From contig OZ240244.1 of the NCBI GenBank assembly GCA_965198165.1, forward strand, positions 1,258,061 to 1,322,060: DNA of 64,000 nt. The letters are read 5' to 3'. The notes below the pieces were generated by a model. It did no database searches, was not told the origin of the DNA, and saw nothing but the letters and a program-made list of their open reading frames with translations. Origin of the DNA: Candidatus Poribacteria bacterium (GTDB taxonomy: Bacteria; Poribacteria; WGA-4E; PCPOR2b). Both the position numbers and the translations under genes were made by a program. Positions 3,277 through 54,275 of this stretch are shown piece after piece; the first letter of the stretch is position 1, and every line of letters begins with the position of its first letter.

Positions 3277-3540
3277 TATACCATTTCTGAAAATTTATAT
3301 CGCGTTAGCGGTTTTGATGAAATATCAAACGCCTGTAATCCCGGCTACGGGGGTGCGGTTGATGACGCTTTCTTTGAAAGTGGCAACATGAGTTGACGCA
3401 CATCGTTATCCGATGGGGCAAGATGCCCCGGCTACGGGGGGCTGATGCGTTTTTGCTTATGACTTTCTTTGAAAGTGGCAACATGAGTTGACGCAAATCG
3501 GACTTCCATTAACGAGTGATTTATTATCGGAATTGGTATT
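3277..3540 (+). repeat. about 260-bp dispersed repeat, copy 1 (copy 2 at 54886-55150)
   Basis: Near-identical sequence at both loci. It contains two internal direct repeats of tttctttgaaagtggcaacatgagttgacgca. Confidence 0.8.
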
Positions 3541-3674
3541 ACGTTAGGTTATCTGAATCAAGCAACTTCCAATATAAAATATGCACATTGTACGTTGATG
3601 GAGGGCGGGGGAACCCCGCCCCTACAGTCTTTGCGCCTGATGAAAATCGAAACATTATTTTTGAAACTTGCTCA

Positions 3675-3806
3675 ATAAGCAGGTTTAAGAATAAAAGTTT
3701 CGATTCCGATTCCAAAGAAATCAAGTTTTTGCAAGGGACGGGCGGGGGGACTCCGCCCCTACGGGTTCAAGAATGTGAAAATTACTATTAAAACTTGCTT
3801 ACTGAA
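3675..3806 (+). repeat. about 130-bp dispersed repeat (second copy at 35786-35912), ending in the aatgtgaaaattactattaaaacttgctt motif
   Basis: Near-identical copies. The 3' motif also recurs at 16085-16120, 16196-16230 and 50063-50092. Both long copies abut the 5' end of a + strand ORF. Confidence 0.75.
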
Positions 3807-4681: not shown

Positions 4682-6118
4682 CCCATCCCTTTAGGGTGGG
4701 GATGTAACACGCCGCAGCGCGCGCGTCTGAACCATTCAGACGCGCGTAAAAAACCTTGTAAATTTCGATGGGATATGCTATGCTCCTTCTACCGTTTCGA
4801 GGCAAGGGTTCACACTCGCAACCTAGCGGGTGCTTGCCTCACCTTCTGAAACAAGGCATAAACGGTGAAACGGAATCCCATGCGAACATTTAAATACAAA
4901 CTACAAAACCACAAGCGCAACAAACACTTACATCGCGACTTGGAAATCATCGCCCACGTTTACAACCACTTCGTGGCATTGTGTCGCCGCCACTATCGCA
5001 TCTATGGACAGTGCGAAGGCTACAAGCGTTTGACATTCAGTCGAATGTCCAAGCACCTCACGAAACTCAAACGGCTTGATAAGTTTGCCCACTGGCACAT
5101 CCCGTTTTCGTGGGCAGTCCAAAACGCTTTGAAACGGATTGAACTCGGGTATATCAACTTCTTTGAGAACCGTGCCAAACGGCCACCCAAATTCCGTAGC
5201 CGTAAAAAATACCGGTCAATGACGTTTGACGGTTCGCAAATCAAAATAGAACCCTTCGCCGATGCGGAATATGGCATCCGCCATGTCCCCGTTGCGAAAA
5301 TCCGCGTCCGTGGGCGTTGGTATCGGTTCTGGTATTCGAGACCGATTGAAGGCAACATCAAGCAAGTCACAGTCAAGCGTGACGGGCTTGGCGATTTCTA
5401 CATTACCATTACAACAGATTTGAATGGGTCGCTTGTCGATAGGCGACCCATTCAAGAAGGATTAACCCCTGAACCACTAACTGGTGAAACAGCAGGGTTT
5501 GATTTTGGGTTAAAAACCTTTCTCACTTGTTCTGATGAAACGAAATACGAATCGCCCCTGTTCTATAAACGCTCTGCCCGCCAGGTTGCCAAAGCCTCAC
5601 GGTCGCTGTCCAAAAAGAAACGGGACAGTAACAACCGTGAAAAAGCACGAAAGCACCTTGCCCGTGCCCACCGTAAAATTCAACGCCAGCGTGAAGATAA
5701 TCACTTCAAACTTGCCATCGACCTCGTCCGCAGGTTTGACTTCTGCTTTTTTGAGGACTTAAACCTCAAGGGTATGGCACGGCTTTGGGGCAAAAAAGTG
5801 CTTGACCTCGCCTTCGGTGACTTCATGTTGAAAATACGATGGCAAGCCCATAAGCGGTGCAAGCGTGTTGAAACCATTAACCGTTGGATTGCCACAACAA
5901 CGGTTTGCCACAGTTGCGGTCAAAAACACGCCTTCATAGACCTCAAAGTCCGTGAATGGCGTTGTTCATGTGGTATCAAACACGACCGCGATGTGAACGC
6001 CGCAAAAGTGGTTCACAAGGTTGGGACATCAACCTTTGCCGGAGAGAGTGTTAGACTCGCTACAGCGGGCTTCCCTCTATGATAGCAGAATCCCCATCCC
6101 TTTAGGGTGGGGAGTATG
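4682..6118 (+). mobile_element. IS200/IS605-family tnpB-only (IS1341-like) element
   Basis: The imperfect palindrome ccccatccctttagggtgggg occurs at 4682-4704 and 6094-6116, flanking a tnpB gene. This is consistent with LE/RE subterminal hairpins. No tnpA is present. Confidence 0.6.
4865..6082 (+). CDS. tnpB: TnpB (OrfB) RNA-guided endonuclease-like transposase-associated protein
   Basis: 405 aa. N-terminal FKYKLQ motif. RuvC-I (GFDFGLK), RuvC-II (FEDLNLKGM), zinc finger (CHSCG...CSCG) and RuvC-III (HDRDVNAA) are all present. Confidence 0.85.
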   Translation: MKRNPMRTFKYKLQNHKRNKHLHRDLEIIAHVYNHFVALCRRHYRIYGQCEGYKRLTFSRMSKHLTKLKRLDKFAHWHIPFSWAVQNALKRIELGYINFFENRAKRPPKFRSRKKYRSMTFDGSQIKIEPFADAEYGIRHVPVAKIRVRGRWYRFWYSRPIEGNIKQVTVKRDGLGDFYITITTDLNGSLVDRRPIQEGLTPEPLTGETAGFDFGLKTFLTCSDETKYESPLFYKRSARQVAKASRSLSKKKRDSNNREKARKHLARAHRKIQRQREDNHFKLAIDLVRRFDFCFFEDLNLKGMARLWGKKVLDLAFGDFMLKIRWQAHKRCKRVETINRWIATTTVCHSCGQKHAFIDLKVREWRCSCGIKHDRDVNAAKVVHKVGTSTFAGESVRLATAGFPL

Positions 6119-32623: not shown

Positions 32624-33892
32624 ATGAAAAGCCTATATCTTTCTTCACTACGAGGAATTATCGGCGATTGGGAGTACTTTCCGTGTTTAATGAAATTCAG
32701 AGATATTGCTGAAAGAGTAAACTTAGCAGAAGAAATCTATGAGAGCAAAACCCTAAGTGAGCTAGTGGAGCGGGAGCTCCGTCAAAATCGCGGCAAAGAG
32801 ATAAAAGCATATCTGATTCAACAAGAACAACGCTTTGTCAATTCCTTAATCGTTGCAGTTTACGAAGGGGCCCCCAATTGGTATGGAATAACCAACCTGA
32901 AGCCAAACAGCATATTAGAGGTCAATACAATACCTGATGAGATCGTCGAAAATGTTGGATTTCTATGCTTGAGTGGTGGCGAGAGGCTTTTTACACTGGA
33001 CGGACAAGACAGGTTGGTGGGCATTAAAGACGCTGTGAAAGAGAATCCTGAGCTGGGTGACGACGAATTGACAGTCATCTTTATCGCTCATAATACAGAT
33101 TCGGCGGGCAAAGAGAGAAGTCGGAGGCTTTTCACAACATTAAACAAGAACGATAAACTTGTTTCAAAAGGGGGGATTATTGCTCTTGACGAGGATGATA
33201 CAATGGCTATTATCGCCCGGCGGTTGGTTATGGAAAATCCCATGTTTATGGAAAAACGCATCTTGAACAATGCCACCAATAATATACCACCTAGCAATTC
33301 TACTTGCCTAACAACGATTGGGAATCTGTACGATCTGCTCGGAATCCTTTTTACGAAAATCTATGTTATATCGAAAAAAAAGAGACAAGCAGATATAAAA
33401 GAGGAATTGACGAAAACGAGGTTAAGTGATAAAATTCTTGATAAGCACTACAAAAACGCTGGCGATTATTTTACGAGACTCGCATATAGCTTCGCTCCGT
33501 TGACCGAGTTTTGCACCGCCTCCGATTATTCTGCGGTCGTCAAAAAATACAGAAATCCAGAGGGTGGCAGTATTCTGTTTCGCCCAATCGGATTGACAAT
33601 TATCACTGAAATTGTTTCAACGCTGGTCAAGAAATACCCATTGGATAGGTGCTTCGAGTTGGTTTCAAAATTGCCTACTGATCTGACAGCAGAACCTTAT
33701 AACGGTGTTATCTGGCATCTAACGCGAAAGCGGATGACGGGTGGGAAAACTCTCGTCAGAAATCTTTTGCTGTATATGTTGGATGCGTATGATGGGGATG
33801 AAGATAAACTGCACCAAGATTACGCAAAAGCATTAGGGGTAGAACAGAACAAAATCCAGCTTCCTGTATCTGTGATTAAGTGTGTGTCCTGA
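32624..33892 (+). CDS. DGQHR domain protein (DndB/DpdB-like, ParB/Srx-fold), paralog 1
   Basis: FTLDGQDRLVGIK motif. 422 aa. The C-terminal two-thirds are near-identical at DNA level to paralog 2. Confidence 0.8.
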   Translation: MKSLYLSSLRGIIGDWEYFPCLMKFRDIAERVNLAEEIYESKTLSELVERELRQNRGKEIKAYLIQQEQRFVNSLIVAVYEGAPNWYGITNLKPNSILEVNTIPDEIVENVGFLCLSGGERLFTLDGQDRLVGIKDAVKENPELGDDELTVIFIAHNTDSAGKERSRRLFTTLNKNDKLVSKGGIIALDEDDTMAIIARRLVMENPMFMEKRILNNATNNIPPSNSTCLTTIGNLYDLLGILFTKIYVISKKKRQADIKEELTKTRLSDKILDKHYKNAGDYFTRLAYSFAPLTEFCTASDYSAVVKKYRNPEGGSILFRPIGLTIITEIVSTLVKKYPLDRCFELVSKLPTDLTAEPYNGVIWHLTRKRMTGGKTLVRNLLLYMLDAYDGDEDKLHQDYAKALGVEQNKIQLPVSVIKCVS

Positions 33893-33983
33893 GAATCACT
33901 ACCCAGGAGCAGGTCACCAAAATGCGCGGCAACAGGATAGGGAATCTGGTAGACTTGTTGTAGGAGTAGATACGGATTAGGCA

Positions 33984-34493
33984 GTGACAGGAAATGCTAT
34001 GGCACATTATGATGTGGTGAGTCAGCAAAAAGAGGTAAGAATCTATCAGACGAATTTCCTTCTTTGGAAAACACAATGGGATGCTTACACTGACCCGCCG
34101 ATTCCATTGGATTGGAAATGCGTGAAGTTTGAAGAAAATAACATAAACCAGGTTCCTACCGAGAAAGGAGTTTATGCTTTTTTCATTGAGCCAAGACTTG
34201 CCAAATTTCCATCGCACGGCTATTTAGCATATATCGGACAGACAGGATATAAGAGCGAGCGTAACTTGCGAAAGAGATTTGGGGATTATCTCCAAGACAA
34301 AAAGAGATCCAAAAGAGTACGAGTCAATTTAATGTTGAATACATGGGAAGACTATCTGTATTTTTATTACGCTGAAGTTGATCCGGCTCTGGATTTAAGA
34401 CAACTAGAACAAATGCTGTTAGATACTTTCACGCCCCCTTTCGTTGAGCGAGGACATTCAACGCACATAAGTGACATAATCAAAGGAATATGA
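33984..34493 (+). CDS. GIY-YIG nuclease family protein
   Basis: EKGVYAFF...GYLAYIGQTG...NLRKRFGDY matches GIY-(10-11)-YIG plus the conserved Arg. Its stop overlaps the next start (ATGA). Confidence 0.7.
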   Translation: MTGNAMAHYDVVSQQKEVRIYQTNFLLWKTQWDAYTDPPIPLDWKCVKFEENNINQVPTEKGVYAFFIEPRLAKFPSHGYLAYIGQTGYKSERNLRKRFGDYLQDKKRSKRVRVNLMLNTWEDYLYFYYAEVDPALDLRQLEQMLLDTFTPPFVERGHSTHISDIIKGI

Positions 34494-35758
34494 TGATGGA
34501 AAGACTATATCTTTCTTCGCTAAGAGGTCTAATCGGTGATTGGGTGTATTATCCTGCCCTAGTGAAACTCAAGGTTATTGCTGAACGGGTGAGTATCGCT
34601 GAAGAGATTTATCAAAGCCCAGCCTTGAGCAAAATGGTACAGAGATGGATAAAAAGGAATGGTGGTAGGGAGATAAAAAATTATCTCCTCAAACAAAAAG
34701 AGCGTTTCTTTAATTCACTAATCGTAGCAGTCTATGAAGGAGAGCCCGATTGGCATGCGATTACTCGTGTTGACAGCAACAATCCATTGGTAGATGCCGA
34801 GGACATCCCCGACGATGTAGTTGCTGGAATTGGATTTCTCAGTTTGAGCGGCGACGAAAAACTATTCACACTTGATGGGCAACACCGACTTATAGGAATT
34901 AAGGAAGCTGTGGAGGAAGACCCTGAACTGGGCGAAGAAGAATTGACGGTAATATTTATCGCCCATCGCACAGATGAAGCAGGAATGGAAAGAAGTCGGA
35001 GGCTTTTCACAACATTAAACAAGAACGATAAACTTGTTTCAAAAGGGGAGATTATTGCTCTTGACGAGGATGATACAATGGCTATCATTGCTCGGCGGTT
35101 GGTTATGGAAAATCCCATGTTTATGGAAGACCGCATCTTGAACAATGCCACCAGTAATATACCACCCAGCAATTCTACTTGCCTTACGACCATTGGGAAT
35201 CTGTACGATCTGCTCGGAATCCTATTCACAAAAATCTATGTTGTATCGAAAAACAAGCGGCTGGCAAAGATAAAAGAGGAATTGACCCAAACGCGGTTAA
35301 GCGATGAAATCCTTGGTCAGCACTACAAAAACGCTTGCGATTATTTTACGAGACTCGCATATAGCTTCGTTCCGTTGACCGAGTTTTGCACCGCCTCCGA
35401 TTATTCTGCGGTCGTCAAAAAATACAGAAATCCAGAGGGTGGCAGTATTCTTTTTCGCCCAATCGGATTGACAATTATCACTGAAATTGTTTCAACGCTG
35501 GTCAAGAAATACCCATTGGATAGGTGCTTCGAGTTGGTTTCAAAATTGCCTACTGATCTGACAGCAGAACCTTATAAGGGTGTTATCTGGCATCCAACGC
35601 GAAAGCGGATGACGGGTGGGAAAACTCTCGTCAGAAATCTTTTGCTCTATATGTTAGATGCGTATGATGGGGATGAAGATAAACTACATCAAGATTACGC
35701 GAAAGCATTAGGGGCACCCCAGTTGCTACCTGTTCCATACAAACTAAAACAGGGTTGA
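34490..35758 (+). CDS. DGQHR domain protein, paralog 2
   Basis: FTLDGQHRLIGIK. 422 aa. Translationally coupled to the GIY-YIG gene. Confidence 0.8.
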   Translation: MMMERLYLSSLRGLIGDWVYYPALVKLKVIAERVSIAEEIYQSPALSKMVQRWIKRNGGREIKNYLLKQKERFFNSLIVAVYEGEPDWHAITRVDSNNPLVDAEDIPDDVVAGIGFLSLSGDEKLFTLDGQHRLIGIKEAVEEDPELGEEELTVIFIAHRTDEAGMERSRRLFTTLNKNDKLVSKGEIIALDEDDTMAIIARRLVMENPMFMEDRILNNATSNIPPSNSTCLTTIGNLYDLLGILFTKIYVVSKNKRLAKIKEELTQTRLSDEILGQHYKNACDYFTRLAYSFVPLTEFCTASDYSAVVKKYRNPEGGSILFRPIGLTIITEIVSTLVKKYPLDRCFELVSKLPTDLTAEPYKGVIWHPTRKRMTGGKTLVRNLLLYMLDAYDGDEDKLHQDYAKALGAPQLLPVPYKLKQG

Positions 35759-35904
35759 TATAACCGACAACCTCACATATAATATTAAGCAGGTTTAAGA
35801 ATAAAAGTTTCGATTCCGATTCCAAAGAAATCAAGTTTTTGCAAGGGACGGGCGGGGGGACCCCGCCCCTACGGGTTCAAGAATGTGAAAATTACTATTA
35901 AAAC

Positions 35905-36777
35905 TTGCTTATTATGGCACAACAATATGATAGCGTCTCAAAATATATCATCTCGGCGTATCCGCAAGCGATGGCAAAACTGGTCTTCAGCAGTCAAACC
36001 GTCGAAGTGCAGGAAACCCTCTCTACTGAGCAGATTATTGTCGATGTCGGCTACACCGATATCACCCTCAGGGTGAAACGTCCTGATGGCACATTAGCTA
36101 CGCTCCACATTGAGGTGCAAACCCGCGATAGCCAGGAACCGATGCCGTTGCGGATGGCAGCGTATCATGGATACCTGCTTAGAGAGTATAAGATGCCCGT
36201 CTGCGGCTGTGTTATTTATCTTGCCCCGAATGCTGGCAAAACCGACCCCGGTCACTATACCTATGAATGGGACGGGTACCAGTATCTGATGCAGTACAAG
36301 GTGATACGATTGATTGAGATAGATGGGCAAGCGATTTTGGAAACGCAGGACCCCGGTTTACTACCACTCACGCCTTTGATGAAACGGCCTAATGATATGG
36401 ATGCCGATCGCTGGTTGGACGAATGTGTTAAAGCGACCAAGGCGGCAGCCGTGGCACCGGAGGTTTTGCCCAATTTATTGGCGGTTTTGAGTATCTTTAG
36501 CAGTTTGGTTTATGACTCTGAACAGATTAACCAACACATCCCGGAGGTCATGATGCACGAATTTCCGTTAGTCCAACACTTTATTGAACAAGGGATTAAG
36601 CAAGGGCGTCAAGAAGGGCATCAAGAAGGGCGCCAAGAAGGTACTGAGCAAGCCCTGACAGCAATTGCGATTGCCATGCTGAACGATAATCAACCGATTG
36701 ATACGATTGTCAAATACACCGGCTTATCTGAAGCGGAGATTAAACAATTAACCGAATCGGTTGATTCAACGACCTAA
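35905..36777 (+). CDS. Rpn/YhgA-like PD-(D/E)XK recombination-promoting nuclease / putative transposase
   Basis: C-terminal QGRQEGHQEGRQEG repeat. Family-typical tail ...IDTIVKYTGLSEAEIKQL. The likely start is the ATG at 35914; the ORF track uses TTG at 35905. Confidence 0.7.
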   Translation: MLIMAQQYDSVSKYIISAYPQAMAKLVFSSQTVEVQETLSTEQIIVDVGYTDITLRVKRPDGTLATLHIEVQTRDSQEPMPLRMAAYHGYLLREYKMPVCGCVIYLAPNAGKTDPGHYTYEWDGYQYLMQYKVIRLIEIDGQAILETQDPGLLPLTPLMKRPNDMDADRWLDECVKATKAAAVAPEVLPNLLAVLSIFSSLVYDSEQINQHIPEVMMHEFPLVQHFIEQGIKQGRQEGHQEGRQEGTEQALTAIAIAMLNDNQPIDTIVKYTGLSEAEIKQLTESVDSTT

Positions 36778-36872
36778 GCCTAACCCCTTTTCAAACAGAC
36801 TCTGAACACAGGTGCGAATAGTATGCAAGGGCTTGGATTGGGCGATCCAACCCGAACGACTGGCAGATCAGA

Positions 36873-36908
36873 AAAGCCCCAACCATATCAAATGGCTGGG
36901 GCTTTTTG
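36873..36908 (+). terminator. rho-independent terminator
   Basis: aaaagccccaaccatatcaaatggctggggctttttg is a GC stem plus T-run. A duplicate lies at 37344-37380. Confidence 0.7.
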
Positions 36909-36960
36909 AATAACGGGTTCGACCCGGGTTGCCCTCTACACGGTAGATTATCGCTTAGGT

Positions 36961-37248
36961 ATGTACGAAAATGACTCTGAACAGATTAACCAACACATCC
37001 CGGAGGTCATGATGCACGAATTTCCGTTAGTCCAACACTTTATTGAGCAAGGTATTGAACAAGGGATTAAGCAAGGGCGTCAAGAAGGGCATCAAGAAGG
37101 GCGCCAAGAAGGTACTGAGCAAGCCCTGACAGCAATTGCGATTGCCATGCTGAACGATAATCAACCGCTTGATACGATTGTCAAATACACCGGCTTATCT
37201 GAAGCGGAGATTGAACAATTAACCGAATCGGTTGATTCAACGACCTAA
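36961..37248 (+). CDS. free-standing Rpn C-terminal fragment ORF (95 aa), possibly an RpnS-like small protein or a pseudogene
   Basis: Near-identical to the last about 90 aa of the 35905..36777 protein. Preceded by the duplicated terminator block. Confidence 0.4.
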   Translation: MYENDSEQINQHIPEVMMHEFPLVQHFIEQGIEQGIKQGRQEGHQEGRQEGTEQALTAIAIAMLNDNQPLDTIVKYTGLSEAEIEQLTESVDSTT

Positions 37249-37489
37249 GCCTAACCCCTTTTCAAACAGACTCCGAACACAGGTGCGAATAGTATGCAAG
37301 GGCTTGGATTGGGCAATCCAATCCGAACGACTGGCAGATCAGAAAAGCCCCAACCATATCAAATGGCTAGGGCTTTTTGAATAACGGGTTCAACCCGGGT
37401 TGCCCTCTACACGGTAGATTATCGCTTAGGTATGTACGAAAATCTATGCTCCCTCCGCAAAAAAGAACGCAGCGGACATAAAAGATGGA

Positions 37490-37966
37490 TTGACTAAAAC
37501 ACGATTCAGTGATAAAATTCTTGATACGCACTACAAAAACGCTTGCGATTATTTTACGAGACTCACAGATAGCTTCGCTCCGTTGACCGAGTTTTGCACC
37601 GCCTCCGATTATTCTGCGGTCGTTAAAAAATACAGAAATCCAGAGGGTGGCAGTATTCTTTTTCGCCCAATCGGATTGACAATTATCACTGAAATTGTTT
37701 CAACGCTGGTCAAGAAATACCCATTGGATAGGTGCTTTGAGTTGGTTTCAAAATTGCCTACTGATTTGACAGCAGAACCTTATAACGGTGTTATCTGGCA
37801 TCCAACGCGAAAGCGGATGACGGGTGGGAAAACTCTCGTCAGAAATCTTTTGCTCTATATGTTAGATGCGTATGATGGGGATGAAGATAAACTGCACCAA
37901 GATTACGCAAAAGCATTAGGGGCACCCCAGTTGCTACCTGTTCCATACAAACTAAAACAGGGTTGA
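37490..37966 (+). pseudogene. DGQHR paralog-2 C-terminal fragment (158 aa)
   Basis: Near-identical to the C-terminus of 34490..35758. The N-terminal DGQHR motif region is absent. Confidence 0.6.
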
Positions 37967-37988
37967 TATAACCGACAATCAGTATCTG

Positions 37989-38501
37989 ATGCAGTACAAG
38001 GTGATACGATTGATTGAGATAGATGGGCAAGCGATTCTGGAAACGCAGGACCCCGGTTTACTACCACTCACGCCTTTGATGAAACGGCCTAATGATATGG
38101 ATGCCGATCGCTGGTTGGACGAATGTGTTAAAGCGACCAAGGCGGCAGACGTGGCACCGGAGGTTTTGCCCAATTTATTGGCGGTTTTGAGTATCTTTAG
38201 CAGTTTGGTTTATGACTCTGAACAGATTAACCAACACATCCCGGAGGTCATGATGCACGAATTTCCGTTAGTCCAACACTTTATTGAGCAAGGTATTGAA
38301 CAAGGGATTAAGCAAGGGCGTCAAGAAGGGCATCAAGAAGGGCACCAAGAAGGGCGCCAAGAAGGTACTGAGCAAGCCCTGACAGCAATTGCGATTGCCA
38401 TGCTGAACGATAATCAACCGATTGATACGATTGTCAAATACACCGGCTTATCTGAAGCGGAGATTAAACAATTAACCGAATCGGTTGATTCAACGACCTA
38501 A
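37989..38501 (+). CDS. Rpn C-terminal half fragment ORF (170 aa) with one extra HQEG repeat unit
   Basis: Matches residues about 125-290 of the 35905..36777 protein. The junction at 37966-37990 fuses the DGQHR 3' end to Rpn internal sequence. Confidence 0.4.
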   Translation: MQYKVIRLIEIDGQAILETQDPGLLPLTPLMKRPNDMDADRWLDECVKATKAADVAPEVLPNLLAVLSIFSSLVYDSEQINQHIPEVMMHEFPLVQHFIEQGIEQGIKQGRQEGHQEGHQEGRQEGTEQALTAIAIAMLNDNQPIDTIVKYTGLSEAEIKQLTESVDSTT

Positions 38502-38632
38502 GCCTAACCCCTTTTCAAACAGACTCCGAACACAGGTGCGAATAGTATGCAAGGGCTTGGATTGGGCAATCCAATCCGAACGACTCGGGGTGGAAAAGAA
38601 TCAAATCCATCTTCCTGTATCTGTGATTAAGT

Positions 38633-39625
38633 GTGTGTCCTAAGAATCACTGCCAAAGTATCACGAAAAATATGTCCCCCGATATCCTACAAAACTATGT
38701 CCAAAGGATGGAACGCTTGCGAATAGACAGGGCGCACGGAGACGCTCCTCACAAGCCTCTCCTCCTGTTGGCAGTCATTGAACTGATTGAGCAAGGACAG
38801 ATTCACGAAAATAGGATCCACCTCTCCCCAGATTTGGCTGAGACCTTCATGAAATATTGGTCAACAGTAACGAATCGAAGGACCAATATCGCCTTGCCAT
38901 TTTTCCACTTAAGAGGTGATGAATTCTGGCATCTCCATCCAAATCCTGGATACGAAACAGCCTTGAACGTCGCCAGTCGAATCAGAGGGATTTCTCGCCT
39001 TCGCGAAGTTATTGCGTATGCGAGTTTGGATGACGACCTTTTTGTTTTACTCACTAATCCCCTGCATCGAGAAGTCATCCGCCAAACCCTTATCCAAACC
39101 TATCTTTCGGATTTCGAGCAAGAGATCGAAAGTCTCCTTGCAGAAGAACAGCAGATTGGAGAATATAGGGCTTTGCTAATCCGACAAAGCGAACTTCCCT
39201 TTTCATCTCAGGAACCAACAGCACCAATCCAAGCAGAAACTTCAATTCGTGACGCGGGTTTCCGTCAAGCAATCATGGGATTGTACAATTACACCTGCGC
39301 TGTCTGTGAGTTGCGTATTGTCACAATGGACGGAGAAAGTGCGACTGACGCTGCCCACATCATTCCCTTTAGTCTTTCGCAGAATGACGATGTACGAAAT
39401 GGAATTTCTCTGTGCAAATTGCACCATTGGGCTTTTGACAAAGGATTAATTTCCTTGAGCGAGACCTATCAAGTTATTGTTTCGGTGCTTATGTCCGATC
39501 AGCGTCCAACGGAGGACAGGCTAACTGAACTGCGCGATAGATCTATATTGTTGCCCGAACACAATCAACTATACCCTGCCCAAGATGCCTTGGAGTGGCA
39601 TCGTGAGGAAGTGCTTAGACAGTAA
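38633..39625 (+). CDS. HNH endonuclease with an N-terminal recognition-like domain
   Basis: HNH core CAVCEL...AHIIPF...NGISLCKLHHWAFDKG. The N-terminal 230 aa, uncharacterised, contain GDAPHKPLLLLAVIELIEQG. Confidence 0.75.
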   Translation: MCPKNHCQSITKNMSPDILQNYVQRMERLRIDRAHGDAPHKPLLLLAVIELIEQGQIHENRIHLSPDLAETFMKYWSTVTNRRTNIALPFFHLRGDEFWHLHPNPGYETALNVASRIRGISRLREVIAYASLDDDLFVLLTNPLHREVIRQTLIQTYLSDFEQEIESLLAEEQQIGEYRALLIRQSELPFSSQEPTAPIQAETSIRDAGFRQAIMGLYNYTCAVCELRIVTMDGESATDAAHIIPFSLSQNDDVRNGISLCKLHHWAFDKGLISLSETYQVIVSVLMSDQRPTEDRLTELRDRSILLPEHNQLYPAQDALEWHREEVLRQ

Positions 39626-39678
39626 CTTAATACGATCCTCAATGAAGCTCTTAACCACTAAAATAGATGAGGTGCTCT

Positions 39679-41265
39679 ATGGGTAACTGGCACAAAATTA
39701 AGGTCAGTTCAAAAATATTGGGGCACATTAGTGGAGGCATATATCGTAGCCCCGCTGATGCGATAAAAGAATTAGTCAGTAATGCGTTTGATGCCGATGC
39801 GACTCGTGTTGCGATTACCACGAATTGGCCGAGCTTCGATATCATCACATGCCGTGACAATGGCAGTGGGATGGAGCAAGAGAAGTTTGAAAGGATAATG
39901 ACTCAGGAAATCGGCGAAAGCACGAAGCGGGTTGCAACTGATGGGAACCCTAATGATGTGACAGAGCTGGGTAGACCAATAATTGGGTGGTTAGGGATTG
40001 GTATGTTGGGAATTGCTCAAATTTGTCGCGAGTTCAGAGTTATATCGCATCATAAGGAGACTCAAACGGCTTTTAGGGCAAGGGTACGTTTGGAGGATTT
40101 CCTCCGTGAAAAAGTGAGTGATATTCCACCAGACCCCGTCGTCCAGCAGTCAATCAACGTTGGGGAATTTATGGTCGAACCGATTGACTATGAACCGGAC
40201 AACGCAGGCACTTATGTGATTGCCTCGCGGGTGCGCTCGGCTTTTCTGAGGCAATTTCGAGCAACTGTAGGCGAAGAGCGGTTGCCATCAAAATTTTCAG
40301 CATTTTTGAAGACCATCCACCGCGCCAGATCTGTGAAAGCTCTCGGTGACTATTGGCAGATGGTTTGGGAGCTAACTGTGGCATGTCCAGTTCCCTACGC
40401 CGAGGCAGGTCCCTTTGATTGGGATAAAATTGAGGTAGAACCGAAACTCAAAAAACGGTTAATTGACCTGCAAGAAACATTAAGAGCGTACCAATTTCAG
40501 GTAGTTGTTGATGGTTTATCGTTACGCAAGCCGAATCAATATCCACTTGCCGCTCCGCAAATACCAAAGCATAAACAAACAACAGGAAAGTTATTCTCTG
40601 TCAATAAAGAGGGAGAAGTATATGGGCAGACTTTCAAATTATCTGGCTACATTTACTTGCAAAATGGTCACGCAGTTGAACCGATGGAACTACGTGGCTT
40701 GTTGGTAAGAATACGAAACACCGCTATCGGGACTTACGACCCAACTCTCTTTACATACCCGAGCATTCCGGCACCGTGTTTCAATTGGTTATCCGGTGAA
40801 ATCTATGTTGAAAAGGGCTTGGAATTCGCGCTAAACATAGACAGGGACAGTTTCAATGAGATGCATCCTCACTTCGTGAAACTCAAAGAGATTATCCACA
40901 ATTTGCTCAAGCAGGAAGTTTTTCCCGAAGCACACCGAGGCCAAAGAAAAAGGTCTCAAGGAATACATGAGGATAGGGAAAATACAAAACGAGCCATCCT
41001 CAAATCTTTAATTCGTCAAGAGCTCGGCGGCGATTATGTACTCACTCGAACAGATGAAAAACCATTTCCCCTGACAATTGATACAGTTCAAGACATGATA
41101 TTCGAGAACAATCAAAGCCCCTTATTACCTAACGCTAAAAGCAAACGGGAACTCATACAACGCATCGCGTATGCCTTTGAAATTTCTATGGAAGCTCCAG
41201 AGGACAAACGTAGGGAAAAATTTTACCTGCTACTATCAGAGTTCGTAAAGTTAGGTTTGTTGTAA
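39679..41265 (+). CDS. GHKL-superfamily ATPase (HATPase_c_3-like)
   Basis: N-box ELVSNAFDADAT. G1 box CRDNGSGM. Length and architecture are typical of defence-associated MORC/HATPase proteins. The ATG at 39679 (MGNWHK) is likelier than the one at 39667. Confidence 0.7.
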   Translation: MGNWHKIKVSSKILGHISGGIYRSPADAIKELVSNAFDADATRVAITTNWPSFDIITCRDNGSGMEQEKFERIMTQEIGESTKRVATDGNPNDVTELGRPIIGWLGIGMLGIAQICREFRVISHHKETQTAFRARVRLEDFLREKVSDIPPDPVVQQSINVGEFMVEPIDYEPDNAGTYVIASRVRSAFLRQFRATVGEERLPSKFSAFLKTIHRARSVKALGDYWQMVWELTVACPVPYAEAGPFDWDKIEVEPKLKKRLIDLQETLRAYQFQVVVDGLSLRKPNQYPLAAPQIPKHKQTTGKLFSVNKEGEVYGQTFKLSGYIYLQNGHAVEPMELRGLLVRIRNTAIGTYDPTLFTYPSIPAPCFNWLSGEIYVEKGLEFALNIDRDSFNEMHPHFVKLKEIIHNLLKQEVFPEAHRGQRKRSQGIHEDRENTKRAILKSLIRQELGGDYVLTRTDEKPFPLTIDTVQDMIFENNQSPLLPNAKSKRELIQRIAYAFEISMEAPEDKRREKFYLLLSEFVKLGLL

Positions 41266-41286
41266 ACTCTATAGGAGCCTGCATAG

Positions 41287-42396
41287 ATGAATCACATCAA
41301 TTTTGAAACAGATCTTCCCAAACATTACGTCAGAAGATACGGATGGTTGCGGGCTATTCAGCAACAAAAACAGGCAATCAGAAAACGGTCAAAAAGGATT
41401 CCCTTGCGCTATTTTACGTTCTGTGCAGAAGATGCAATTGATGTCTTTATGTTAGAACGCGAGGAAATTCTTAAAAGGTCAGAGGAAACAGGGTACCTAG
41501 AAGGTGTCTACTTTTGTGAGGAGGACCTTGAGAAGTTCGGGAAAATAGCTAATTTAATAGGCTCCGCTGAACAAGGGTTTCAAGGCGCATTTGAAAAGAT
41601 TGTACTGTTTGAGGACGATGAAGAAACAACGGGGAAAACATTGGAAGATGAGGATTCTTATCCACCTGAGATCCACGAAAAGCTTATATTCAAAGATGCA
41701 CATCATCGCTTACATGAAGCGTTCCCATTCGATATTATCAACCTTGACGTGTTTGGTGTCATGTTTCCCGCCAGAAAGGGGATTATAACACCCCTTCTGG
41801 AATCAATTATTCAAATTTTAGAGTGGCAAACGGAATCAAGGTTTTCAATCAACAATCGCGAATGCGACCAATTCACGTTATTTCTTACCTCTCACATTGA
41901 TCCAGATCTGACAGATCAAACCGCAATACAACAACTTGAAAATCGAGTCATTGACAATATCAGTACGAGTGTGGATTTTGAATCTGCTTTTGTCAAGCAA
42001 TATGGACACAATCAAGTTCAGAAACTCGTAAGTGAGAATTTCGCCGAATTTTTCTGCGTCGCCCTTCCGAAATTTATGATTTATCAGGCCCTATTTGAGC
42101 TCGGGTGGCAAGTCACCTGTGGCCCGACATATTTGTATAATCGTGATGACAGGTGGATGGAAAATAAGCAGTATCAAATTATGCACACGGTTTCAGTTTA
42201 TGAACGTATTCCCAACTTTCAAAAACGTCTTGATGCTCCCAGTGCAGGTCAATATATTCAGTTAGTCACCCAACTTGTCAATGATGGCGTTGAATGGGTG
42301 GATGATGTTATAGCAAATCCTGATATCAACCGGGAATTAAAGGAAGATCTGGAAGGGATTGTCGAATTGAGAAATCGGTATCAGAGACCGCAATAG
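41287..42396 (+). CDS. hypothetical protein (369 aa), probable partner of the GHKL ATPase
   Basis: Long ORF, 22 bp after the ATPase stop. No motif I can assign with confidence. Confidence 0.5.
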   Translation: MNHINFETDLPKHYVRRYGWLRAIQQQKQAIRKRSKRIPLRYFTFCAEDAIDVFMLEREEILKRSEETGYLEGVYFCEEDLEKFGKIANLIGSAEQGFQGAFEKIVLFEDDEETTGKTLEDEDSYPPEIHEKLIFKDAHHRLHEAFPFDIINLDVFGVMFPARKGIITPLLESIIQILEWQTESRFSINNRECDQFTLFLTSHIDPDLTDQTAIQQLENRVIDNISTSVDFESAFVKQYGHNQVQKLVSENFAEFFCVALPKFMIYQALFELGWQVTCGPTYLYNRDDRWMENKQYQIMHTVSVYERIPNFQKRLDAPSAGQYIQLVTQLVNDGVEWVDDVIANPDINRELKEDLEGIVELRNRYQRPQ

Positions 42397-53125: not shown

Positions 53126-53171
53126 ATCTGCTAAAGCACACTTAAAGAATAAGAGCCTGTTTGAAAAGTCA

Positions 53172-54275
53172 TTATGTGGATGAGCTAACCGATTCCGTTA
53201 ACTGTTCAATCGCCTCCTCAGACAATCCTGTATATTTCGCAATCGCATCAATCGGTTGATTATCATTCAACATCGAAATCGCAATTGTCGTAAGAGTTTG
53301 CTCAGTACCGCGTTCAATACCGCGTTCAATACCTTCTTCACGACCGCGTTCAATACCTTCTTCACGACCGCGTTCAATACCTTCTTCACGACCGCGTTCA
53401 ATACCGCGTTTTTCGCCTTGTTTAATGAGGCGATCTGCCATTGTATATACCATGTCTGTCACATCCTTTCTACGTGAAAGTGGAATTTGGTCCTGAACGA
53501 CTGCTTTCAAGTCCTCGTGTTGGTCAACCGGACGGCGATGTAGGATTAGCAACAGCAGATAGGAAATCGCCTTCTCCCACTGTTGCCTTTGTGCTTCACC
53601 AAGGGTGTTGATCTGCGAGAGGGCTTCTATCAACGCGCCCCTTATCTCTGCCTCGCTCGCATTTTCCTTTTTCAAGACGGTCAGCAACCACCCCAACGGA
53701 TGACCGCTTTGCGTTAGGATGGCATCATCTGTCCCCTTTACGTCTAGGAGCAGTATTTTGAATTGCGGAACAAACTCAGAGAGCACATCCGGGATGTCCA
53801 TTATGGCATCGAGGGTCAGCGGGGCATTCCATCCCTGCTCGCCGGTGTAAAACACAATCGGGATTATCGGACGCAAACGTTGCTGACTGGCGGGAACGTC
53901 GTTCGATTCCCACTCCCGGCTTTGCAAATCCAAAATATGGTTCATGTAAGAATTGACTCGAAGTGCCATTTTCACATCCACCGTGGATTGGTGTTCTATG
54001 AGAATATAGATGAACAGCTCTTTGGGACCCGATTCGCTACGAAGTGGCACCTTAAATACGATGTCTGCGAACCGCTCTCGCAGGTCGTCGGCAAGAAAAC
54101 TCGTGTTGATGAGTTCGAGTCGACTAAAATCAATGAGGGGCACCAGTCTGTAGGCGAGGATTTCAAACAATCCTCGGACGTACTCTCTGTCTTGGAGCAA
54201 CCATCGGGCACTTCGGTCTGAGAAGCGCCCAATCGGCATGTCGAAAAATTTAATTATTTCTGTTACGTTTGCCAT
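53172..54275 (-). CDS. Rpn/YhgA-like PD-(D/E)XK nuclease / putative transposase, second copy
   Basis: Tail ...IDAIAKYTGLSEEAIEQL. The (EEGIERGRE)x3 amino-acid repeat is encoded by perfect 27-bp DNA tandem repeats at about 53300-53400. The N-terminal core FADIVFKV...ELFIYILIEHQSTVD is family-typical. Confidence 0.7.
   Translation of the reverse strand: MANVTEIIKFFDMPIGRFSDRSARWLLQDREYVRGLFEILAYRLVPLIDFSRLELINTSFLADDLRERFADIVFKVPLRSESGPKELFIYILIEHQSTVDVKMALRVNSYMNHILDLQSREWESNDVPASQQRLRPIIPIVFYTGEQGWNAPLTLDAIMDIPDVLSEFVPQFKILLLDVKGTDDAILTQSGHPLGWLLTVLKKENASEAEIRGALIEALSQINTLGEAQRQQWEKAISYLLLLILHRRPVDQHEDLKAVVQDQIPLSRRKDVTDMVYTMADRLIKQGEKRGIERGREEGIERGREEGIERGREEGIERGIERGTEQTLTTIAISMLNDNQPIDAIAKYTGLSEEAIEQLTESVSSST

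What the first reader, a model, noticed from the sequence alone, without database searches (positions are those of the whole stretch)
32624..35758. DGQHR - GIY-YIG - DGQHR module: two ParB/DndB-like paralogs with identical 3' two-thirds but diverged N-terminal thirds, flanking a translationally coupled GIY-YIG nuclease
Both 422-aa proteins carry the DGQHR motif (FTLDGQDRLVGIK and FTLDGQHRLIGIK). By established knowledge this marks DndB (phosphorothioation regulator), DpdB (7-deazaguanine DNA modification) and several anti-phage systems. From about residue 150 on the two genes are almost identical at nucleotide level, for example gaagtcggaggcttttcacaacattaaacaagaacgataaacttgtttcaaaagggg in both. 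The first roughly 140 residues are clearly diverged at protein level. The extreme C-termini also differ (GVEQNKIQLPVSVIKCVS against GAPQLLPVPYKLKQG). That pattern fits gene conversion homogenising the core while the ends diversify, as expected for defence specificity determinants. The GIY-YIG gene (GVYAFF...YIGQTG...R) overlaps paralog 2 by ATGA. I do not recall a described DGQHR plus GIY-YIG pairing. The whole 32.6-42.4 kb stretch is visibly more AT-rich than the flanking PhyH and oxidoreductase genes.
Basis: partly seen in the sequence, partly recalled or inferred. Interest (0 to 1): 0.7.

Follow-up and report, generated by a model that had tools for sequence, protein, structure and literature searches.

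The report
Scrambled phosphorothioate defence island, duplicated dndB
The 'DGQHR–GIY-YIG–DGQHR module' is a recombination-scrambled version of a phosphorothioate (dnd/pbe) defence island typical of sponge-symbiont Poribacteria: a widely conserved GIY-YIG-nuclease→DndB gene pair plus one extra mosaic dndB copy, next to a nuclease that reads sulfur-modified DNA, with no sulfur-writing genes in the window.

Summary
Two 422-aa DndB-family genes flank a GIY-YIG gene whose stop overlaps the second dndB start (ATGA). They are 65% identical before position 33115 and 94.5% identical after it (max-chi2 177.6; permutation maximum 17.2).

It is not a new three-gene system. GIY-YIG→DndB is a conserved bicistron, found in every informative related locus, including members only 33–39% identical. 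It normally follows pbeABCD (the CxC-ABC module) and faces dndCDE, or in many Poribacteria is followed by an SBD-HNH nuclease. Only this window has two full copies.

D2 is the resident allele (86% identical to a syntenic relative). Its last 18 codons were cut off by a 2.9-kb block of Rpn-like repeats and survive at 38587–38643, just upstream of the SBD-HNH gene. D1's 5' third belongs to a second allelic lineage that occurs as the single dndB of locus L029 (82.5% identical). Synonymous sites between D1 and D2 are saturated there, so this is old divergence and not diversification. The 3' parts of D1, D2 and a third partial copy are homogenised, so gene conversion is supported. D1 alone has DGQDR.

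Three close relatives carry three different cassette sets at this site. The window lacks dndCDE and pbeABCD. Novelty is modest.

The parts
32624..33892 (+). D1: full-length mosaic copy of the GIY-linked DndB paralogue (422 aa). The 5' third (to 33115) is beta lineage. The 3' part is homogenised with D2. It keeps the ancestral C-terminus (GVEQNKIQLP...) and has a private DGQDR motif.
   Evidence: Pfam DndB 100.6 bits. Breakpoint after 33115. 5' third 82.5% identical to L029 dndB against 64.8% to D2. The C-terminus matches L001, L004 and L018. It is the only DGQDR among 23 DndBs, and L029 has DGQHR. RBS GGGGGA lies upstream of the start.
33904..33987 (+). Remnant of the 3' end of pbeD (DndE-cognate, PF27807 'dnd_assoc_4'), containing in-frame stops.
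   Evidence: It translates to QEQVTKMRGNRIGNLVDLL*, against L001 assoc4 C-terminus QEQVAEMPGNRIANLVGLLQKWLPISP*. Nucleotide homology with L001 starts at 33904.
33999..34493 (+). GIY-YIG (URI) nuclease of the DndB-linked subfamily, 164 aa. Its stop overlaps the D2 start (ATGA).
34490..35758 (+). D2: the resident (alpha-lineage) GIY-linked dndB. dndB homology ends at 35714, and the last 15 codons (GAPQLLPVPYKLKQG) are read from the inserted Rpn-repeat flank.
   Evidence: 85.8% nt identity to L001 GIY+dndB over 33904-35711. 5' third 86% identical to L001. The junction sequence 35716-35785 matches the L001 Rpn flank 3536-3605. Self-BLAST.
35715..38586 (.). 2.87-kb inserted and duplicated block that splits the original dndB. 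It holds an Rpn-like ORF (35905-36777), Rpn-like fragments (36961-37248 and 37989-38501) and a partial dndB 3' copy, 'frag3' (37435-37966).
   Evidence: Self-BLAST repeat units are 95-96% identical (repeat finder). TIGR01784 Rpn family scores 37.6 bits, below the 52.1 cutoff. The frag3 left breakpoint is shared with the L001 fragment.
38587..38643 (+). Orphaned original 3' end of the resident dndB (GVEKNQIHLPVSVIKCVS*), now ~2.9 kb from the body of its gene.
   Evidence: 90% identical to the D1 3' end 33836-33903. Sequence read. Other type B loci have HNH directly after or overlapping the dndB stop.
38672..39625 (+). SBD-HNH endonuclease (317 aa): an N-terminal sulfur-binding (wHTH) domain plus a C-terminal HNH domain, of the PT-DNA-dependent type IV restriction enzyme family.
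   Evidence: PDB 8h0l SBDHga, E=1.2e-21. Cavity residues H25, K26, L75, P76 and H79 are all conserved, and the HNH motif is intact (residues from PMC10602919). Pfam HNH_2. NF045808 scores 140 bits, below the 180 cutoff.
39667..41265 (+). GHKL-type ATPase (532 aa), first gene of a recurrent two-gene cassette.
   Evidence: Pfam HATPase_c_3, 2.2e-14. Weak N-terminal hit to BbrUII/HgiDII. Orthologues occur in L014 (68%) and L028 (80%).
41287..42396 (+). PP_RS20740-family protein (369 aa), partner of the GHKL ATPase.
   Evidence: NF047698 scores 73 bits, below the 200 cutoff. The L028 orthologue carries precomputed PF28273 PP_RS20740. 83% aa identity to L028 and 71% to L014.

Best explanation
The region is one allele of a cassette-shuffling phosphorothioate (PT) defence island of a probable Candidatus Poribacteria genome.

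Its constant core is a bicistron: a GIY-YIG (URI) endonuclease gene translationally coupled to a distinct DndB paralogue (a ParB/Srx-fold DGQHR protein). In relatives this pair forms the 3' end of the pbeABCD (HKD-helicase / small protein / CxC-ABC ATPase / DndE-cognate) operon and faces the PT-writing genes dndCDE. Alternatively it stands alone behind its own promoter and is followed by an SBD-HNH nuclease.

In this window, pbeABCD has been deleted apart from 84 nt of pbeD. dndCDE is absent. The resident dndB (D2) has had its last 18 codons cut off by an Rpn-like repeat block that separates it from the downstream SBD-HNH gene. A second dndB (D1) from a different allelic lineage sits upstream, and its 3' 60% has been homogenised with D2 and with a third partial copy by gene conversion. 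The 'DGQHR-GIY-DGQHR' arrangement is therefore a by-product of recombination between dndB alleles, not a designed three-gene module.

Mechanism, inferred and not shown:
- DndB acts as an NTP-modulated DNA-binding regulator or licensing factor for the operon and for its co-translated GIY-YIG nuclease, an accessory or back-up effector.
- The SBD-HNH protein binds Rp-phosphorothioate links through its conserved hydrophobic cavity and cuts PT-DNA.
- In a strain without PT writers, the island would therefore restrict PT-modified DNA arriving from PT-positive sister strains and their phages.
- D1 (DGQDR) is probably redundant or decaying.
For: Shown.
- Synteny of the flanks with L001 (85% nt) and L028 (88-93%), with three different cassette sets at one site.
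- GIY is immediately upstream of DndB in every informative locus. These are Poribacteria, one Latescibacterota, one Phycisphaerales, and distant metagenomic members with GIY only 33-39% identical. The one exception is L025, which is degraded.
- The GIY subfamily has 476 clusters at 50% identity with E<=1e-10.
- L034 and L035 show pbeABCD-GIY-DndB(411 aa) facing a complete dndB(374 aa)-C-D-E operon, so the GIY-linked DndB is a separate paralogue. The Pbe mapping comes from PMC10853773.
- The window holds no DndC, DndD or DndE hit.
- Junction anatomy.
- Two allelic lineages and 3' homogenisation.
- SBD cavity 5 of 5 conserved, HNH motif intact.
- GIY-YIG fold and conserved residues.
- GIY, DndB and HNH are under purifying selection in type B loci (median omega 0.16, 0.14, 0.16).
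- Among the loci that carry the GIY-DndB pair, dndCDE and intact HNH never occur together: 11 loci have dndCDE only, 10 plus the window have HNH only, and 2 (L014, L023) have neither. At least 3 partner switches appear on the DndB tree.

From the literature.
- DndB is an ATP-modulated repressor of dnd genes (PMC4507180; reference 21 of PMC10853773).
- SBD nucleases restrict PT-DNA (PMC10602919).
Against: - The functional roles of GIY and the DndB paralogue are inferred from homology and gene order only.
- PMC10853773 reports SBD-HNH genes immediately downstream of dnd modification genes in 698 taxa. SBD-HNH and PT writing can therefore coexist, and 'PT-dependent restriction in a PT-negative host' is not guaranteed.
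- dndCDE could lie elsewhere in this genome. Only 64 kb was visible.
- D1, GIY and D2 are all intact ORFs, and D1/D2 differences in the 3' part are mostly synonymous (omega 0.2). 'By-product' does not mean non-functional.
- The window lacks the conserved type B promoter upstream of GIY, so expression is uncertain.
- The direction of gene conversion is not resolved: the 3' parts are 84-85% identical to L001 and 81% to L029.
Confidence: 0.72

Rival explanations
1. One reading: a new defence system made of two DGQHR paralogues flanking a GIY-YIG nuclease. Gene conversion keeps the core identical while the N- and C-terminal ends diversify as specificity determinants.
For: Both copies are intact 422-aa ORFs with a sharp mosaic boundary. 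The remaining differences in the 3' part show omega ~0.2. PADLOC recognises no complete system here.
Against: - Only the window, among more than 30 related loci, has two full copies.
- The 5' thirds are two old allelic lineages with saturated dS. Each occurs singly elsewhere.
- The D2 C-terminus is an insertion junction, and the true end survives at 38587-38643.
- The DndB N-terminal third is among the better conserved parts of the family.
- D1 carries a private H->D change in a nearly invariant motif.
Confidence: 0.04
2. GIY-YIG-DndB-SBD-HNH is an autonomous PT-sensing defence module that works without any PT writer in the cell. The DndB paralogue has a role beyond repressing dndCDE, for example licensing the two nucleases.
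For: - Ten type B loci in Poribacteria, plus the window, carry GIY-DndB-HNH with no dndCDE within up to +-10 kb.
- Type B loci share a conserved promoter of their own.
- The HNH start overlaps the dndB stop in L006, L016 and L024.
- All three genes are under purifying selection.
- Writer and reader are mutually exclusive among the sampled loci that carry the GIY-DndB pair, and partner switches are repeated.
Against: - Genome-wide absence of dndCDE could not be tested. The contig-length test missed 2 of 4 positive controls.
- SBD-HNH commonly coexists with dnd writers in other phyla (PMC10853773).
- Several type B contigs are short.
- The type B loci are phylogenetically clustered, so they represent few independent events.
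Confidence: 0.25
3. The locus is a decaying relic. After the loss of pbeABCD and dndCDE, the dndB copies and perhaps GIY are no longer functional and are on the way to pseudogenisation.
For: - A pbeD stump lies upstream of GIY.
- D2 is truncated and re-terminated by an insertion.
- D1 has DGQDR.
- The type B promoter is missing.
- Many fragments sit in 35.7-38.6 kb.
- L025 shows that such loci do decay.
Against: D1, GIY, D2 and SBD-HNH have no frameshifts or internal stops. The D1/D2 3' differences are biased towards synonymous changes. GIY is 89% identical to its L001 orthologue, with all invariant residues kept.
Confidence: 0.3
4. The duplication is an assembly artefact, a collapsed or chimeric repeat.
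For: The region contains 95-99% identical repeats up to ~600 nt long, which can confuse short-read assemblers.
Against: - D1 and D2 differ at 216 of 1227 aligned positions and have unique junctions on both sides.
- D1's 5' third matches an independent lineage (L029).
- L001, an independent assembly, shares the Rpn/dndB-fragment junctions.
Confidence: 0.03

Closest known systems
CxC-ABC ATPase / 'PbeABCD' systems coupled to DndCDE(A) PT modification (Xiong et al. 2019, as re-annotated in PMC10853773)
   Same: Close relatives at the same chromosomal site (L001, L028), and distant loci (L034/L035), carry pbeA (HKD/SF2 helicase), pbeB (small protein), pbeC (ABC ATPase) and pbeD (PF27807). These are followed by the same GIY-DndB pair and face dndCDE. 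The window keeps an 84-nt pbeD stump directly upstream of GIY.
   Different: The window has lost pbeABC and dndCDE. The GIY-YIG→DndB pair as a fixed 3' extension of the pbe operon is not part of the published PbeABCD definition.
DndB, the DGQHR ParB/Srx-fold regulator of dndBCDE (Salmonella DptB; PMC4507180)
   Same: Pfam PF14072 and TIGR03187 are met. D2 has the DGQHR and FxxxN-type motifs. Orthologues are linked to dnd genes.
   Different: The score is far below the DndB equivalog cutoff (57-69 against 328 bits). The gene is not at the head of a dndBCDE operon. L034/L035 have this paralogue in addition to a canonical dndB. It is always preceded by a GIY-YIG gene. D1 has DGQDR.
SBD-HNH PT-dependent type IV restriction endonucleases (ScoMcrA, SprMcrA; SBDHga structure 8h0l)
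   Same: The downstream gene has an SBD with all five sulfur-cavity residues and an intact HNH motif.
   Different: It has no SRA domain. It scores below the NCBIfam cutoff. In type B loci it is operonically linked to GIY-DndB, an association I did not find described. Activity is untested.
Stand-alone URI/GIY-YIG nucleases at the boundaries of dnd loci (PMC10853773, proposed back-up suicide effectors)
   Same: A small stand-alone GIY-YIG protein with conserved catalytic-type residues, encoded in dnd islands.
   Different: Here it is not peripheral or on the opposite strand. It is strictly upstream of, and usually overlapping, a DndB paralogue across a family of at least 476 50%-identity clusters. 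It has a conserved ~60-aa N-terminal extension.
SspE / GmrSD (a DUF262 DGQQR ParB-like NTPase fused to an HNH-like DUF1524 nuclease)
   Same: In concept, a ParB-like NTPase domain working with a nuclease in modification-sensing defence. L004 has a GmrSD gene just upstream of GIY-DndB.
   Different: Here the ParB-like protein and the nucleases are separate polypeptides, the nuclease fold (GIY-YIG) differs, and there is no sequence-level membership.

Membership tests
DndB / DGQHR domain family (PF14072, TIGR03187) | Profile score above the curated threshold | tested here: met
   Pfam DndB 100.6 bits (D1) and 105.7 bits (D2) against a cutoff of 29.1. TIGR03187 95.6 and 109.3 bits against 58.85.
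DndB / DGQHR domain family (PF14072, TIGR03187) | Nearly invariant DGQHR pentapeptide | tested here: inconclusive
   D2 has DGQHR. D1 has DGQDR and is the only deviant among 23 full-length relatives. Its nearest 5' relative, L029, has DGQHR. No mutational data on the His were found.
Canonical DndB (TIGR03233 equivalog; head of the dndBCDE operon, repressor) | Equivalog-level score and position upstream of dndCDE in the same operon | tested here: not met
   57.3 and 69 bits against a cutoff of 328. Orthologues are convergent with dndEDC. L034/L035 carry a separate 374-aa dndB at the head of dndBCDE.
Dnd PT-modification system (DndCDE +/- A) | Presence of DndC (PAPS-reductase-like), DndD (ABC ATPase) and DndE | tested here: not met
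   tblastn with L001 DndC, DndD and DndE gives no hit (E<=1e-6, at least 25% coverage) anywhere in the 64-kb window. The rest of the genome was not visible.
PbeABCD / CxC-ABC system | HKD-SF2 helicase, small protein, CxC ABC ATPase and DndE cognate | tested here: not met
   Only an 84-nt pbeD 3' remnant at 33904-33987. There are no helicase or ABC ATPase hits in the window. All four are present in L001, L028 and L029.
GIY-YIG (URI) nuclease superfamily | Pfam PF01541 above the gathering score | tested here: inconclusive
   The window protein scores 18.7 bits, below 22.6. However, 24 of 28 family members match at E<=0.01, with a best value of 9.8e-7.
GIY-YIG (URI) nuclease superfamily | beta-beta-alpha-alpha-beta-alpha core with conserved Tyr (GIY), Tyr/Gly (YIG), Arg and Glu | tested here: met
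SBD-HNH PT-dependent type IV restriction enzymes | Sulfur-binding domain with its hydrophobic cavity residues | tested here: met
   8h0l SBDHga, E=1.2e-21. H25, K26, L75, P76 and H79 are all identical in the window protein (residues from PMC10602919).
SBD-HNH PT-dependent type IV restriction enzymes | C-terminal HNH catalytic motif | tested here: met
   Pfam HNH_2, 9.6e-13. CAVC...AAHIIPF...RNGISLC.LHH is conserved across paralogues.
SBD-HNH PT-dependent type IV restriction enzymes | PT-dependent DNA binding and cleavage; NCBIfam NF045808 cutoff | not testable with these tools
   NF045808 scores 140 bits, below the 180 cutoff. Activity needs biochemistry.
Dpd (7-deazaguanine) system, DpdB | DGQHR protein next to DpdA (TGT-like) and other dpd genes | tested here: not met
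   PADLOC and NCBIfam give only DndB/DGQHR hits for D1 and D2. None of the seven island proteins scanned matched a Dpd family, and the Pfam scan of the same genes found no TGT-like domain.
Rpn family recombination-promoting nuclease / putative transposase (TIGR01784) | Profile score above the cutoff | tested here: not met
   37.6 bits, below 52.1, with only the C-terminal ~90 residues matching. There is no Pfam hit. I therefore call it 'Rpn-like' only.

The most novel reading that the evidence does not exclude
The GIY-YIG→DndB bicistron is a self-standing, ancient functional unit: a ParB-fold NTPase that licenses a nuclease. It plugs alternately into PT writers (dndCDE/pbeABCD) or into a PT reader (SBD-HNH). 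That would imply that DndB-family proteins have a direct effector or licensing role, not merely transcriptional control of dndCDE.

A more speculative extension concerns the window itself. There, gene conversion keeps a common C-terminal domain on two different ParB-type N-domains, which could allow mixed DndB oligomers.
Probability: 0.22. Interest if true: 0.6.

Novelty: new variant of a known kind. Interest (0 to 1): 0.38.

Why it matters
As stated, the finding is mostly explained: it is a rearranged allele of a dnd/pbe defence island.

What is worth keeping is the comparative result.
- A specific DndB paralogue is always co-translated with a GIY-YIG nuclease, across a large family.
- At one poribacterial hotspot this pair stays fixed while its partner flips between PT-writing genes and a PT-reading nuclease.

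It would also be an example of sister strains in one sponge microbiome carrying 'write' and 'read-and-cut' alleles of the same island.

The locus is also a clean natural example of gene conversion among defence-gene paralogues, with mapped tracts and identified donor lineages.

Tried and rejected
1. DndC contig-length test. I tried to decide whether type B genomes carry dndC elsewhere by matching the 'longest_contig' values of DndC homologues to known chromosome lengths. The list was truncated at ~69% identity, and only 2 of 4 positive controls (L010, L018) appeared. The test is inconclusive and I dropped it.

2. Cluster c0. I tested whether these 265-290 aa proteins, found in tandem upstream of GIY in most loci, are Rpn-like and could explain the hotspot. 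They are not (HMM scores ~0) and look like secreted proteins.

3. Sequence search of DndB and of the GIY family profile against the PDB gave no meaningful hits.

5. I first thought the dndB fragment in L001 was orthologous to D1. The alignment shows it shares its left breakpoint with frag3 instead.

6. I first read D1's 5' third as possibly fast-evolving after duplication. I rejected this because synonymous sites are saturated and because L029 has an 82.5% identical relative.

7. The word-indexed search with D1's N-terminal 164 aa returned only short proteins at <=67% identity. One 75% partial hit from that search led to L029.

8. There are no Rfam families or tRNAs in the window that might mark island borders.

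9. Promoter and terminator scans gave only consensus-level matches.

10. A Dpd-system reading was rejected.

Full report
**1. Observation**

D1 is at 32624-33892 and D2 at 34490-35758, both 422 aa. A small ORF at 33984-34493 has its stop overlapping the D2 start in ATGA. By comparison with homologues, its probable real start is ATG 33999, which is preceded by AGGAA.

Both large proteins exceed the Pfam DndB and TIGR03187 DGQHR thresholds. The quoted 57-mer is exact in both genes.

A maximum chi-square scan places a breakpoint after 33115:
- 35% differences to the left and 5.5% to the right;
- chi2 = 177.6, against a maximum of 17.2 in 1000 permutations;
- a weaker second step at 33443, with 9.1% against 2.5% differences.

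GC is 0.40-0.49 over 32-43 kb and about 0.50-0.56 in the adjoining genes.

**2.

- The 35.7-38.7 kb stretch holds an Rpn-like ORF (35905-36777), two Rpn-like fragments, and a third, partial dndB copy (37435-37966).
- The sequence at 38587-38643 encodes GVEKNQIHLPVSVIKCVS*. This is the missing original C-terminus of D2. It is 90% identical to the D1 3' end and lies just upstream of the next gene.
- D2's own last 15 codons (GAPQLLPVPYKLKQG) are read from the flank of the Rpn-like repeat. The same flank precedes the Rpn-like remnant in L001.
- Window 33904-33987, directly upstream of GIY, is a stump of the gene that precedes GIY in relatives (QEQVTKMRGNRIGNLVDLL* against QEQVAEMPGNRIANLVGLL...).

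**3. Relatives**

A scan of species-representative genomes found 20 loci. Eighteen are Candidatus Poribacteria MAGs.

L001 is syntenic with the window. It has the same HEAT and Band_7 genes on the left and CarboxypepD_reg and ADH on the right, at ~85% nt identity. L028 is a third syntenic relative, with flanks 88-93% identical.

GIY lies directly upstream of a DndB homologue in every informative locus. The one exception is L025, which is degraded.

An exhaustive profile search shows the subfamily is large: 476 clusters at 50% identity with E<=1e-10. Distant members with only 33-39% identity are also followed at once by DGQHR proteins.

**4. The known frame**

In type A loci the order is:

SF2/HKD helicase – ~60-aa protein – ABC ATPase – PF27807 protein – GIY – DndB, convergent with dndE-dndD-dndC.

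PMC10853773 identifies the first four genes as PbeA to PbeD of the CxC-ABC system. The same paper notes URI/GIY-YIG nucleases at dnd-locus boundaries and SBD(wHTH)-HNH nucleases downstream of dnd genes.

L034 and L035 carry pbeABCD-GIY-DndB(411 aa) facing a complete dndB(374 aa)-C-D-E operon. The GIY-linked DndB is therefore a distinct paralogue that travels with the pbe module. This agrees with its low score against the DndB equivalog model (57-69 against 328 bits).

**5. A second architecture**

In 10 poribacterial loci, GIY-DndB is followed by one or two copies of an HNH gene. No dndCDE lies within up to +-10 kb. A conserved TTGAC-17-TGTTAAAAT promoter lies upstream of GIY.

The window's HNH protein (38672-39625) has these features:
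- an N-terminal sulfur-binding domain (8h0l SBDHga, E=1.2e-21);
- all five sulfur-cavity residues conserved (residues taken from PMC10602919);
- an intact HNH motif.

Once the 2.87-kb repeat block is removed, the window is a type B locus: GIY-DndB-(30 nt)-SBD-HNH.

Within type B loci all three genes are under purifying selection. Median omega is 0.16 for GIY, 0.14 for DndB and 0.16 for HNH.

Among the loci that carry the GIY-DndB pair, dndCDE and an intact HNH never occur together. Two of those loci (L014, L023) have neither. L026, a type A locus, keeps an HNH stump.

On the DndB tree the partner switches at least three times.

Three close relatives carry three different cassette sets at one site:
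- L001: pbeABCD-GIY-DndB and dndCDE.
- L028: pbeABCD, GHKL-PP_RS20740 and dndCDE, with no GIY-DndB.
- Window: D1, GIY-D2, SBD-HNH and GHKL-PP_RS20740.

**6. Origin of the two copies**

*5' third (32624-33115).* D2 is 86.2% identical to L001 dndB. D1 is 64.8% identical to D2, 65.7% to L001, and 82.5% to the single dndB of L029, which is an ordinary pbeABCD-GIY-dndB/dndCDE locus. Synonymous sites between D1 and D2 are saturated here (Sd 90/108; dN 0.25). These are two old allelic lineages, not post-duplication diversification. Across species the N-terminal third is among the better conserved parts of DndB.

*3' part.* D1 and D2 differ by dS 0.16 with omega 0.2, and both are about equally distant from L001 (dS 0.54). 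Over 33491-33840, D1, D2 and the partial copy are 97-99% identical. The orthologue in L001 is ~84-85% identical over 33444-33839. The partial copy's left breakpoint is shared with a fragment in L001, so it predates the split. That pattern indicates gene conversion among the three copies.

Segment trees show the expected incongruence.

D1 alone has DGQDR. L029 has DGQHR, so the change is private to D1.

**7. Mechanism**

*Shown:* gene content, gene order, conservation, selection, and the integrity of the SBD and HNH motifs.

*Inferred:*
- DndB, an ATP-modulated DNA-binding repressor in Salmonella (PMC4507180; reference 21 of PMC10853773), regulates or licenses its operon and the co-translated GIY-YIG nuclease.
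- SBD-HNH binds and cuts PT-DNA.
- Without PT writers, the window's island would restrict PT-modified DNA coming from PT-positive sister strains.

*Caveats:*
- dndCDE may exist elsewhere in the genome.
- SBD-HNH coexists with dnd writers in 698 taxa (PMC10853773).
- The window lacks the type B promoter upstream of GIY.

**8. Verdict**

The three-gene 'module' is a recombination product inside a known kind of island. Gene conversion is supported. The 'diversifying specificity ends' idea and the 'new system' idea are not.

The residual novelty has two parts: the strict, widespread GIY-YIG→DndB-paralogue bicistron, and its writer-free pairing with SBD-HNH. I did not find either singled out in the literature I could search.

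Noticed in passing
window 39667-42396; L014 18231-20500; L028 14067-16793: A GHKL ATPase (HATPase_c_3) plus PP_RS20740-family protein pair recurs next to dnd/pbe modules in three loci. In L028 it is inverted relative to the shared flanks. PADLOC matches no known system, so it is a candidate two-gene defence cassette of unknown function.
   Followed up: partly
window 3676-3801 and 53152-53309: Further pieces of the Rpn-like repeat lie elsewhere in the window. One is a 126-nt segment 99% identical to 35786-35911. The other is a 78% identical piece of the Rpn 3' end on the minus strand. The repeat is therefore dispersed in this genome.
   Followed up: no
window 4880-6090; L001 18537-19714: This stretch is 76.6% identical to an IS605 OrfB/TnpB (Cas12f1-like_TNB) gene that lies just outside the island in L001. 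It sits at a different position in the window.
   Followed up: no
L008 3236-5164, L016 11733-13795, L022 9645-11605: Some type B loci carry two tandem SBD-HNH paralogues that differ at sulfur-cavity positions (H25 to N or Y, K26 to Q, L75 to M or N). This may reflect different PT sequence contexts or ligands.
   Followed up: partly
L006-L026, about 40-70 nt upstream of GIY: A conserved sigma70-like promoter (TTGAC-17-TGTTAAAAT) precedes GIY in type B loci and in L026. It is absent where pbeD precedes GIY.
   Followed up: partly
L001 11713-11850: L001 dndB has lost its normal stop and reads ~35 codons into the convergent dndE. This is another rearrangement junction at the very 3' end of dndB, the same place as the window's Rpn insertion and the HNH overlap in type B loci.
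   Followed up: partly
L026 9214-9327; L025 10001-10859: There are relics of past swaps. A type A locus (L026) keeps an SBD-HNH N-terminal stump upstream of GIY. L025 retains only a GIY C-terminal piece fused near an HNH fragment, with dndB gone.
   Followed up: no
L006-L026, upstream of GIY on the opposite strand: Two or three tandem copies of a 265-290 aa signal-peptide-bearing protein family (cluster c0, no Pfam hit) flank the island in most Poribacteria. They are unrelated to the Rpn-like protein.
   Followed up: partly
L029 6929-8691: GIY and dndB in this 11x long-read contig are broken by several 1-4 nt indels. These could be sequencing errors or real pseudogenisation, and I could not tell which.
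   Followed up: no
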